DNA of 64,000 nt from Eledone cirrhosa (lineage: Eukaryota). The position numbers and the translations under genes were made by a program. The notes below the pieces were generated by a model that made no database searches, was not told where the DNA came from, and was given only the letters and a program-made list of their open reading frames with translations. The stretch spans positions 322,834,001-322,898,000 of the forward strand of contig OZ024742.1 of the NCBI GenBank assembly GCA_964016885.1. Direction: 5' to 3'. Below are positions 57,401-59,881 of the stretch, one piece after another (within the stretch, counting starts at the first letter, position 1; every line of letters begins with the position of its first letter).

Positions 57401-59365
57401 GTCCAGCTATTCCGTATGTAAACACACAGACAAACCGGTTTTTAGAGTCATACTGGTTTTCGAGGAAACACCTTTCCTCTATTCTCCAGAAAGCCAGACA
57501 AGGAATATTGGACTAGTTTCGATGTTGTTACATCTCATCAGCAATATTTACCTATCTTCCGGCCTTTCTAGAGAATCGTAAAAGCACATATCGTTATATG
57601 CTTTTTCTATGAAAATTAGTAGTGGGCAGACTAATTTGCATAGAGCGTGAGTACGTACCGGTTCAGCGGAGACGATAAAAACAAATAACGAAACGAAATT
57701 AAATTTCGTTTCGTTTGTAACTCACTTTTGTATGACTGACGCTTAAACAATTAAATTAAAAATGTACATCCACATATGTATACTGAAATACTAGTATGCA
57801 TATGAATACACACACGTGTACATATGTAGATGTACCGAGTTTTTCACTGGACACTTTACTGTGAGTGTCCAGCTATTCCGTATGTAAACACACAGACAAA
57901 CCGGTTTTTAGAGTCATACTGGTTTTCGAGGAAACACCTTTCCTCTATTCTCCAGAAAGCCAGACAAGGAATATTGGACTAGTTTCGATGTTGTTACATC
58001 TCATCAGCAATATTTACCTATCTTCCGGCCTTTCTAGAGAATCGTAAAAGCACATATCGTTATATGCTTTTTCTATGAAAATTAGTAGTGGGCAGACTAA
58101 TTTGTATAGAGCGTGAGTACGTACCGGTTCAGCGGAGACGATAAAAACAAATAACGAAACGAAATTAAATTTCGTTTCGTTTGTAACTCACTTTTGTATG
58201 ACTGACGCTTAAACAATTAAATTAAAAATGTACATCCACATATGTATACTGAAATACTAGTATGCATATGAATACACACACGTGTACATATGTAGATGTA
58301 CCGAGTTTTTCACTGGACACTTTACTGTGAGTGTCCAGCTATTCCGTATGTAAACACACAGACAAACCGGTTTTTAGAGTCATACTGGTTTTCGAGGAAA
58401 CACCTTTCCTCTATTCTCCAGAAAGCCAGACAAGGAATATTGGACTAGTTTCGATGTTGTTACATCTCATCAGCAATATTTACCTATCTTCCGGCCTTTC
58501 TAGAGAATCGTAAAAGCACATATCGTTATATGCTTTTTCTATGAAAATTAGTAGTGGGCAGACTAATTTGCATAGAGCGTGAGTACGTACCGGTTCAGCG
58601 GAGACGATAAAAACAAATAACGAAACGAAATTAAATTTCGTTTCGTTTGTAACTCACTTTTGTATGACTGACGCTTAAACAATTAAATTAAAAATGTACA
58701 TCCACATATGTATACTGAAATACTAGTATGCATATGAATACACACACGTGTACATATGTAGATGTACCGAGTTTTTCACTGGACACTTTACTGTGAGTGT
58801 CCAGCTATTCCGTATGTAAACACACAGACAAACCGGTTTTTAGAGTCATACTGGTTTTCGAGGAAACACCTTTCCTCTATTCTCCAGAAAGCCAGACAAG
58901 GAATATTGGACTAGTTTCGATGTTGTTACATCTCATCAGCAATATTTACCTATCTTCCGGCCTTTCTAGAGAATCGTAAAAGCACATATCGTTATATGCT
59001 TTTTCTATGAAAATTAGTAGTGGGCAGACTAATTTGCATAGAGCGTGAGTACGTACCGGTTCAGCGGAGACGATAAAAACAAATAACGAAACGAAATTAA
59101 ATTTCGTTTCGTTTGTAACTCACTTTTGTATGACTGACGCTTAAACAATTAAATTAAAAATGTACATCCACATATGTATACTGAAATACTAGTATGCATA
59201 TGAATACACACACGTGTACATATGTAGATGTACCGAGTTTTTCACTGGACACTTTACTGTGAGTGTCCAGCTATTCCGTATGTAAACACACAGACAAACC
59301 GGTTTTTAGAGTCATACTGGTTTTCGAGGAAACACCTTTCCTCTATTCTCCAGAAAGCCAGACAA
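48435..59365 (-). mobile_element. Tandem array of about 23.5 x 466-bp units, each with a type I hammerhead ribozyme (retrozyme / Penelope-pLTR-like)
   Basis: Exact 466-bp period (ORF-track copies recur from 48545 to 58797). Each of the 23 complete copies reads on the minus strand AATATTG-CTGATGA-GATGT-AACA-ACATC-GAAA-CTA-GTC-CAATATT. Confidence 0.92.
48650..48694 (-). ncRNA. Minimal type I hammerhead ribozyme (first of 23 array copies, at 48650+466k; last at 58902-58946)
   Basis: 7-bp stem I, CUGAUGA core, 5-bp stem II with AACA loop, GAAA, 2-bp stem III within palindromic ACUAGU, GUC cleavage triplet. Predicted cut between 48657 and 48656. Confidence 0.93.
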
Positions 59366-59881
59366 AAGTGAGTTACAAACGAAACGAAATTTAATTTCGT
59401 TTCGTTATTTGTTTTTATCGTCTCCGCTGAACCGGTACGTACTCACGCTCTATGCAAATTAGTCTGCCCACTACTAATTTTCATAGAAAAAGCATATAAC
59501 GATATGTGCTTTTACGATTCTCTAGAAAGGCCGGAAGATAGGTAAATATTGCTGATGAGATGTAACAACATCGAAACTAGTCCAATATTCCTTGTCTGGC
59601 TTTCTGGAGAATAGAGGAAAGGTGTTTCCTCGAAAACCAGTATGACTCTAAAAACCGGTTTGTCTGTGTGTTTACATACGGAATAGCTGGACACTCACAG
59701 TAAAGTGTCCAGTGAAAAACTCGGTACATCTACATATGTACACGTGTGTGTATTCATATGCATACTAGTATTTCAGTATACATATGTGGATGTACATTTT
59801 TAATTTAATTGTTTAAGCGTCAGTCATACAAAAGTGAGTTACAAACGAAACGAAATTTAATTTCGTTTCGTTATTTGTTTT

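What the first reader, a model, noticed from the sequence alone, without database searches (positions are those of the whole stretch)
59340..59400. Array ends 9 nt from a predicted self-cleavage site and flips into an inverted copy through 4-bp microhomology
Seen: the last partial unit stops at 59365 (…gccagacaa). The next hammerhead would have cut at the position equivalent to 59374/59375, so on the ribozyme strand the array's 5' end lies 9 nt downstream of a cut site. An inverted 523-bp copy starts there, sharing ACAA. Established: inverted 5' segments typify Penelope-like insertions and LINE twin priming. Inference: the template RNA had a ribozyme-generated 5' end and the RT switched template there, a footprint of RNA-mediated insertion. 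Landing this close by chance in a 466-bp unit is a few per cent.
Basis: partly seen in the sequence, partly recalled or inferred. Interest (0 to 1): 0.72.

Follow-up and report, generated by a model that had tools for sequence, protein, structure and literature searches.

The report
Double-ended Penelope-driven ribozyme repeat insertion
This junction is the ordinary middle seam of a head-to-head insertion of a hammerhead-ribozyme repeat found at about two thousand places in this genome; such seams rarely fall at the ribozyme's predicted cut site, but the two outer ends almost always use two different fixed start points, which likely shows a Penelope-type enzyme copying one RNA from both broken DNA ends.

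Summary
The interpretation mostly fails. The unit belongs to a family with at least 1,934 insertion ends. Of 154 insertions parsed, 116 are head-to-head. Inner ends fall at unit positions 1-14 in 10 of 253 arms (7.1-7.5 expected, P about 0.2), at the cut +/-2 in 1 (2.5 expected), and arms cross the cut site 564 times. A weak excess at 1-25 (20 vs 12.7, P 0.03 uncorrected) leaves room for a small cut-derived minority. The real signal is at the outer ends: one arm ends at position 302 and the other at 221-234 in 100 of 101 resolved pairs, in (TA)n. Both arms share one haplotype, and two insertions are chimeras with a Neptune-type Penelope element. Verdict: a new non-LTR retrozyme family inserted Penelope-style (inverted arm plus tail), likely by two-ended target-primed reverse transcription on uncleaved multimeric or circular RNA. 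Reads neither confirmed nor refuted this particular seam.

The parts
47082..48434 (.). (TA)n/(TATG) microsatellite, left target
   Evidence: TRF; sequence
48435..59365 (-). Long arm: 23.5 tandem 466-bp retrozyme units; outer 3' end at unit position 222 ('short' end class 221-234), inner end at position 10 (10-13)
58886..58957 (-). Last complete type I hammerhead of the long arm; predicted cut between 58909 and 58908; helix III is one base pair capped by palindromic CUAG
   Evidence: Rfam HH9 E 6e-8; stems I and II covary with a sister family, 5 of 13 pairs changed on both sides, only 3 sequences
59362..59365 (.). ACAA microhomology at the head-to-head seam (unit positions 13-10 and 246-249)
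   Evidence: family microhomology distribution
59362..59884 (+). Short arm: 523 bp, unit positions 246-466 then 1-302; outer 3' end at 302 ('long', tail-bearing end)
59534..59605 (+). Intact hammerhead inside the short arm; cut site 59582/59583 crossed without a break
59680..59680 (+). Rare unit variant 98G, present in the short arm and in all 24 covering units of the long arm
59811..59884 (+). 'Tail' (unit 229-302) between the two fixed end sites; contains the hairpin 59844-59872 (unit 262-290)
   Evidence: end clustering; hairpin fold
59885..60022 (.). (TA)n microsatellite, right target
   Evidence: TRF

Best explanation
The locus is a head-to-head insertion of a tandem hammerhead repeat in a (TA)n tract, likely made when a Penelope-like (probably Neptune-type) enzyme cut both DNA strands and primed reverse transcription from both ends on the same RNA species, with the two cDNAs then likely joined at arbitrary points by short microhomology, so the 9-nt distance to the predicted cut site is probably coincidence. 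Shown: architecture, fixed outer ends (302 and 221-234, one of each), spread inner ends, shared haplotype of the two arms, microhomology excess, chimeras with a Neptune-type element. Inferred: two RT active sites starting on either side of the 262-290 hairpin; an uncleaved template (multimer or circle) read through many cut sites; host end-joining at the seam. The ribozyme likely acts earlier, to make unit-length or circular RNA, and does not set insertion ends.
For: 116 of 154 insertions head-to-head. Outer ends: 128 at 302 and 116 at 227-234 (the 302 count is inflated by selection on that end). Pairing long+short 100, long+long 0, short+short 1; 19 of 19 in the sample not chosen by its ends. 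Inner ends not at the cut: 10 of 253 at 1-14 vs 7.1; 1 at +/-2 vs 2.5; 564 crossings; upper 95% bound on the excess 3.7% of arms. Arms of one insertion differ by a median 0.4% vs 3.9% between insertions, 89 of 89 closer than the median. The rare 98G variant (40 matches genome-wide) sits on both arms here and at 3 other loci. Microhomology of 4 nt or more in 17% of 81 insert-free joins vs 2.4% at random. Autonomous Penelope families in this genome show the same short-end/long-end layout in (TA)n at 6 loci read by eye (L216, L220, L222, L217, L196, L223). L080 joins a retrozyme arm (long end) to about 2.4 kb of an RT/GIY-YIG element ending at its short end. Frangieh 2024 (PMC11167929): a Penelope protein nicks and extends both strands, starts at two internal RNA sites that define the tail, and does not need ribozyme cleavage.
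Against: Weak excess of inner ends at 1-25 (P 0.03; 0.009 in one subset; uncorrected). 38 of 154 insertions were not parsed as head-to-head (some have a second arm too short to call). L105, the second chimera, has two long ends. No sequence match between the unit and any autonomous Penelope end was found in 50 GIY-YIG loci, so the driver is a lead from 2 chimeras only. Frangieh saw no difference in start site between the two strands in vitro, so the one-of-each rule is not shown biochemically. Self-cleavage and expression were not shown. Arrays may have grown after insertion.
Confidence: 0.76

Rival explanations
1. One reading: the RT of the long arm ran off a ribozyme-cut 5' end, lost about 9-13 nt and joined or switched to the other arm.
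For: End at position 10-13. Family excess at 1-25: 20 vs 12.7 (P 0.03), short-end arms 12 vs 6.2 (P 0.02), uncorrected. If that excess is real, about 7 of the 20 such ends are non-random.
Against: 1 of 253 ends at the cut +/-2 (2.5 expected); 1-14 not significant; best 25-nt window in a scan lies elsewhere. This arm crossed 23 cut sites and the short arm one more. Positions 1-25 are also the 3' strand of stem I, so an RT pause explains the same excess. Frangieh 2024 found no reads ending at the cut site of their element.
Confidence: 0.16
2. The inversion arose after insertion at DNA level (foldback repair or gene conversion between units), not during integration.
For: Arms share a haplotype; some arrays show higher-order periods that could be later duplications.
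Against: It does not explain why the inverted arm ends exactly at the other fixed site against (TA)n in 100 of 101 pairs, nor the same layout in autonomous elements.
Confidence: 0.04
3. The seam is an assembly or library chimera.
For: No listed contig in runs X1-X3 bridges the seam (tables cut, so uninformative). A 23-unit near-perfect array could be miscounted.
Against: Not a mirror foldback (10 vs 246). The short arm ends at the family's canonical 302 site and carries the locus's rare 98G. 116 insertions have the same form with different seams.
Confidence: 0.04

Closest known systems
Metazoan non-LTR retrozymes (Cervera and de la Pena 2020, PMC7229834; review PMC7761336; Li 2026, 10.64898/2026.07.22.740005)
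   Same: Non-coding tandem repeat with one type I hammerhead per unit, low GC, strongly self-paired monomer (z -10.7), dispersed loci, Penelope elements in the same genome; one-pair helix III with a palindromic tetraloop like the amphibian dimer-acting type.
   Different: Unit is 466 bp (150-450 bp reported). The passages I read describe no head-to-head arms, fixed paired ends or retrozyme-Penelope chimeras. Circular RNA and cleavage not shown here.
EN+ Penelope-like element insertions (Craig 2021, PMC8557442; Arkhipova 2013, PMC3846280)
   Same: Inverted 5'-truncated copy head-to-head, tail at one end only, (TA)n targets, microhomology at 5' joins.
   Different: No ORF; tail about 70-74 nt rather than 30-40; both arms are multi-unit arrays, both longer than one unit in 46 insertions.
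PAc Poseidon element in vitro (Frangieh 2024, PMC11167929)
   Same: Two internal RT start sites bounding the tail, both strands cut and extended, AT-rich targets, cleavage not needed.
   Different: They saw no strand difference in start site; here the two sites are paired one of each almost without exception.
L1 twin priming (recalled, not read here)
   Same: Both DNA ends prime; arms joined by microhomology.
   Different: The second priming site here is fixed, not arbitrary, and the arms copy overlapping template. A pile of long-end arms stopping at 198-236, near the second start, is a partial resemblance.

Membership tests
non-LTR retrozyme | Type I hammerhead with intact core in each tandem unit | tested here: met
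   Rfam HH9 E 6e-8, below gathering; 206 of 244 complete units identical over the ribozyme region; covariation with a sister family, 3 sequences only
non-LTR retrozyme | Small tandem unit, non-coding, no LTR, dispersed copies | tested here: met
   466-bp unit, slightly above the reported 150-450; at least 1,934 ends; no terminal repeats in the parsed loci; coding capacity judged from unit size and RNA fold, no ORF scan run
non-LTR retrozyme | Stable self-paired monomer | tested here: met
   -157.6 kcal/mol, z -10.7; circular fold -153.3
non-LTR retrozyme | Self-cleavage and circular RNA in vivo | not testable with these tools
   No RNA holder listed
Penelope-type insertion (non-autonomous) | Inverted 5'-truncated arm, head-to-head | tested here: met
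   116 of 154
Penelope-type insertion (non-autonomous) | Tail at one end only | tested here: met
   100 of 101 resolved pairs
Penelope-type insertion (non-autonomous) | Sequence shared with the pLTR of an autonomous partner | tested here: inconclusive
   No match in 50 GIY-YIG loci out of 10,597 candidates; 2 chimeras with one Neptune-type family
Autonomous Penelope element | RT plus GIY-YIG ORF | tested here: not met
   The insertion is only units from 48435 to 59884
   1 of 253 at +/-2; 10 of 253 at 1-14 vs 7.1 expected

The most novel reading that the evidence does not exclude
Two-ended rolling-circle integration: a Neptune-type Penelope dimer binds one circular retrozyme RNA at its 262-290 hairpin, primes one broken DNA end at 302 and the other at about 230, and both RTs circle the RNA many times before being joined, writing a palindromic satellite array of up to 11 kb in one event. 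This would be direct genomic evidence for how animal retrozyme circles become satellite DNA and what the Penelope tail is for.
Probability: 0.3. Interest if true: 0.72.

Novelty: new member of a known kind. Interest (0 to 1): 0.45.

Why it matters
The single junction matters little. The family does: about 2,000 young insertions give a statistical footprint of Penelope integration. The strict one-long/one-short end rule, the shared haplotype of the arms and read-through of the cut site suggest that the two known RT start sites serve the two ends of one break. The chimeras name a candidate enzyme for retrozyme mobilisation, which the review PMC7761336 calls undeducible from sequence. Both points are testable with the existing in vitro Penelope assay.

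Tried and rejected
Cut-site clustering: tested with an exposure-weighted binomial and a length-jitter null; not significant at 1-14 or +/-2. Reads: no listed contig of X1-X3 or X8 bridges the seam, and the tables were cut (2,910 and 139 pieces not shown); reads of X24, another study, stop on either side; inconclusive. No RNA holder listed. Rfam at gathering level: 0 hits in the window. The pattern for this locus's own left end matched only the window. Autonomous partner by sequence: BLAST of the unit against 30 + 20 GIY-YIG loci gave only sister retrozymes, one family copy and a 30-nt antisense match inside an ORF, rejected as chance; local alignment of the chimera family's end to the unit did not beat shuffles (22 of 200 as high). 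Collision model: long-end arms pile at 198-236 (27 of 137 vs 13-14); the window was chosen; scan-corrected P 0.13 for all, 0.019 for arms over 300 nt; short-end arms 12 vs 10.7; no reciprocal pile at 292-315; kept as a lead only. Circle vs linear multimer: 14 of 28 long insertions have no recurring minor variant, 14 do, 4 share one between arms; not decided. The 65-nt insert at the L139 seam has no Rfam hit. Three look-ups of earlier findings returned nothing.

Full report
Observation. The window holds a 466-bp array at 48435-59365, 23.5 copies; 22 of 23 in-register units are identical. Each unit carries a type I hammerhead on the minus strand (Rfam HH9, 38.9 bits, E 6e-8, under the gathering score; no hit at gathering level). 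Stems I and II covary with a sister family in a three-sequence alignment (5 of 13 pairs changed on both sides). The predicted cut lies between +58909 and 58908, so the next would be 59375/59374. I number unit positions from the first base after the cut. The array stops at position 10 (10-13 with the ACAA overlap). An exact inverted copy runs 59362-59884, from position 246 through an intact ribozyme to position 302. Both outer ends are 3' ends of the RNA strand and abut (TA)n.

Sampling. A DNA search of the genome gave 324 matches, 150 shown, from 39 of 427 candidates; I fetched the 33 loci visible (S1). A pattern for 'position 302 followed by TA' has 1,934 exact matches; I fetched the first 100 listed, all on contig C1, as 97 new stretches (S2). 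A pattern for the other end supplied 20 more loci, of about 32 not yet held (S3). Stretches were parsed by Viterbi alignment to the nearest natural unit variant. I dropped L092 (duplicate of L091), short microsatellite-like segments, arms whose outer end was in neither end class, arms of 20 nt or less, and the window itself. That left 154 insertions (window included) and 253 arms for the tests.

Inner ends fall at 1-14 in 10 of 253 arms against 7.5 (exposure model, P 0.22) or 7.1 (jitter null, P 0.18). At the cut +/-2 there is 1 against 2.5. Arms cross the cut site 564 times. The 95% upper bound on an excess at 1-14 is 3.7% of arms. Against my reading: 1-25 holds 20 against 12.7 (P 0.03), 18 against 9.8 in S2+S3 (P 0.009), and short-end arms 12 against 6.2 (P 0.02), all uncorrected. 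This is also the 3' strand of stem I, so an RT pause fits as well as a cut end. Eight of 115 other head-to-head insertions have an inner end at 1-14. Microhomology is family-wide: 4 nt or more in 14 of 115 joins, 17% of 81 insert-free joins against 2.4% at random. This seam is therefore unremarkable; I put the chance that it is cut-derived near 0.15-0.2.

What the family shows. 116 of 154 insertions are head-to-head. Outer ends sit at 302 or at 227-234, and they pair one of each: 100 mixed, 0 long-long, 1 short-short; 19 of 19 in S1, which was not chosen by its ends; 67 of 67 in S2, chosen on one long end. Read-derived contigs, probably from the assembled sample and so not independent, show (AT)n directly after positions 302, 228 and 233. 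The 70-74 nt between the sites hold a long hairpin. Both arms exceed one unit in 46 insertions. The arms of one insertion differ by a median 0.4% against 3.9% between insertions (89 compared). The window's variant 98G has 40 matches genome-wide: 25 here on both arms, both arms at three other loci, and three single hits. So both arms come from one template lineage.

Driver. The genome is rich in GIY-YIG elements (150 scored of 10,597 candidates), some with long RT-bearing frames. Six loci of three families, read by eye, have a short end on one arm and a tail-bearing end on the other, in (TA)n; L225 could not be resolved from the print. No sequence match to the unit was found in 50 such loci. 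Two insertions are chimeras. L080 has a retrozyme arm ending at 302 joined to about 2.4 kb of an RT/GIY-YIG element that ends at its short end, with no upstream part of that element on the other flank. L105 has a short piece of a related end, but with two long ends. The Neptune label rests on a CxxC before the GIY-YIG motif, as described in Craig 2021; no tree was built.

Mechanism. Shown: the architecture and counts above. Inferred: a Penelope enzyme cuts both strands in (TA)n and primes one end at 302 and the other at about 230 on the same RNA species; both RTs read through cut sites because the template is an uncleaved multimer or a circle; the cDNAs stop at varied points and are joined by microhomology. 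Long-end arms tend to stop at 198-236 (27 of 137 against 13-14; post hoc; scan-corrected P 0.13, or 0.019 for arms over 300 nt), as if meeting the second primer. Circle against multimer is open: 14 of 28 long insertions, this one included, have no recurring minor variant, as rolling-circle copying predicts; 14 do, 4 share one between arms, and some show periods of 2 to 8 units (by eye). Later array growth could give either.

Artefact. No listed contig bridges the seam, but the tables were cut. The seam is not a mirror foldback and the short arm has the canonical end and the locus's rare variant, so an artefact is unlikely.

Literature. Frangieh 2024 (PMC11167929; parts 1-2 of 4 read; no supplements): both strands nicked and extended, two internal start sites define the tail, cleavage not needed, no reads ending at the cut, no strand difference in start site. 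Craig 2021 (PMC8557442; passages): inverted truncated copy, tail often at one end only, (TA)n targets. Arkhipova 2013 (PMC3846280; passages): head-to-head structures and microhomology. Cervera 2020 (PMC7229834; passages), the review PMC7761336 (passages) and Li 2026 (10.64898/2026.07.22.740005; part 1 of 5 and passages): retrozymes, circles, proposed Penelope origin. L1 twin priming is recalled, not read. Five searches and the passages read gave no account of paired fixed ends or head-to-head arms in retrozyme arrays; the library is incomplete.

Verdict. Observation confirmed; interpretation partly supported. This is a new member of the non-LTR retrozymes, inserted in the known Penelope manner. 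The claimed ribozyme footprint is probably chance. The end-pairing rule, shared template and chimeras make the Penelope and retrozyme integration mechanism testable. Interest 0.45.

Noticed in passing
L080:306-4040; L105:306-3310: Chimeric head-to-head insertions joining retrozyme arms to pieces of one Neptune-type Penelope family (relatives in L217, L209, L187, L223); candidate mobilising partner.
   Followed up: partly
L205:2699-3264; L221:8079-9001; L225:1758-1955: A sister hammerhead repeat family, about 70-77% alike in matched stretches, also beside (TA)n; compensatory changes in stems I and II.
   Followed up: partly
L139:594-659: 65-nt GC-rich foreign sequence between two arms that both end at unit position 14; no Rfam hit, not found in other fetched loci.
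   Followed up: partly
L041, L062, L106, L132: Unit variants recur with periods of 2-8 units; in L041 one arm looks period 2 and the other period 3. Multimeric circles or later duplication.
   Followed up: partly
L153:1512-1579; L158:7620-7696; L156: Tail-only or tail-plus-one-unit insertions whose 5' end at 228-232 abuts (TA)n directly, as if the second end primed without extending.
   Followed up: no
window 48435: This locus's short end is at 222, about 6 nt before the usual 228-233; the 222T variant duplicates a TTAAT word, which may have let priming slip.
   Followed up: no
L216:1989-5737; L222:2260-5525: Autonomous Penelope insertions forming 3.3-3.8 kb near-perfect palindromes centred in the ORF.
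   Followed up: no
L091 and L092: Identical insertion twice, 17.7 kb apart: local duplication or assembly duplicate.
   Followed up: no
window 37873-40337 and 11415-14553: A 46-bp array (53 copies, 95% matches) and an 18-bp array (173 copies); no Rfam hit at gathering level.
   Followed up: no
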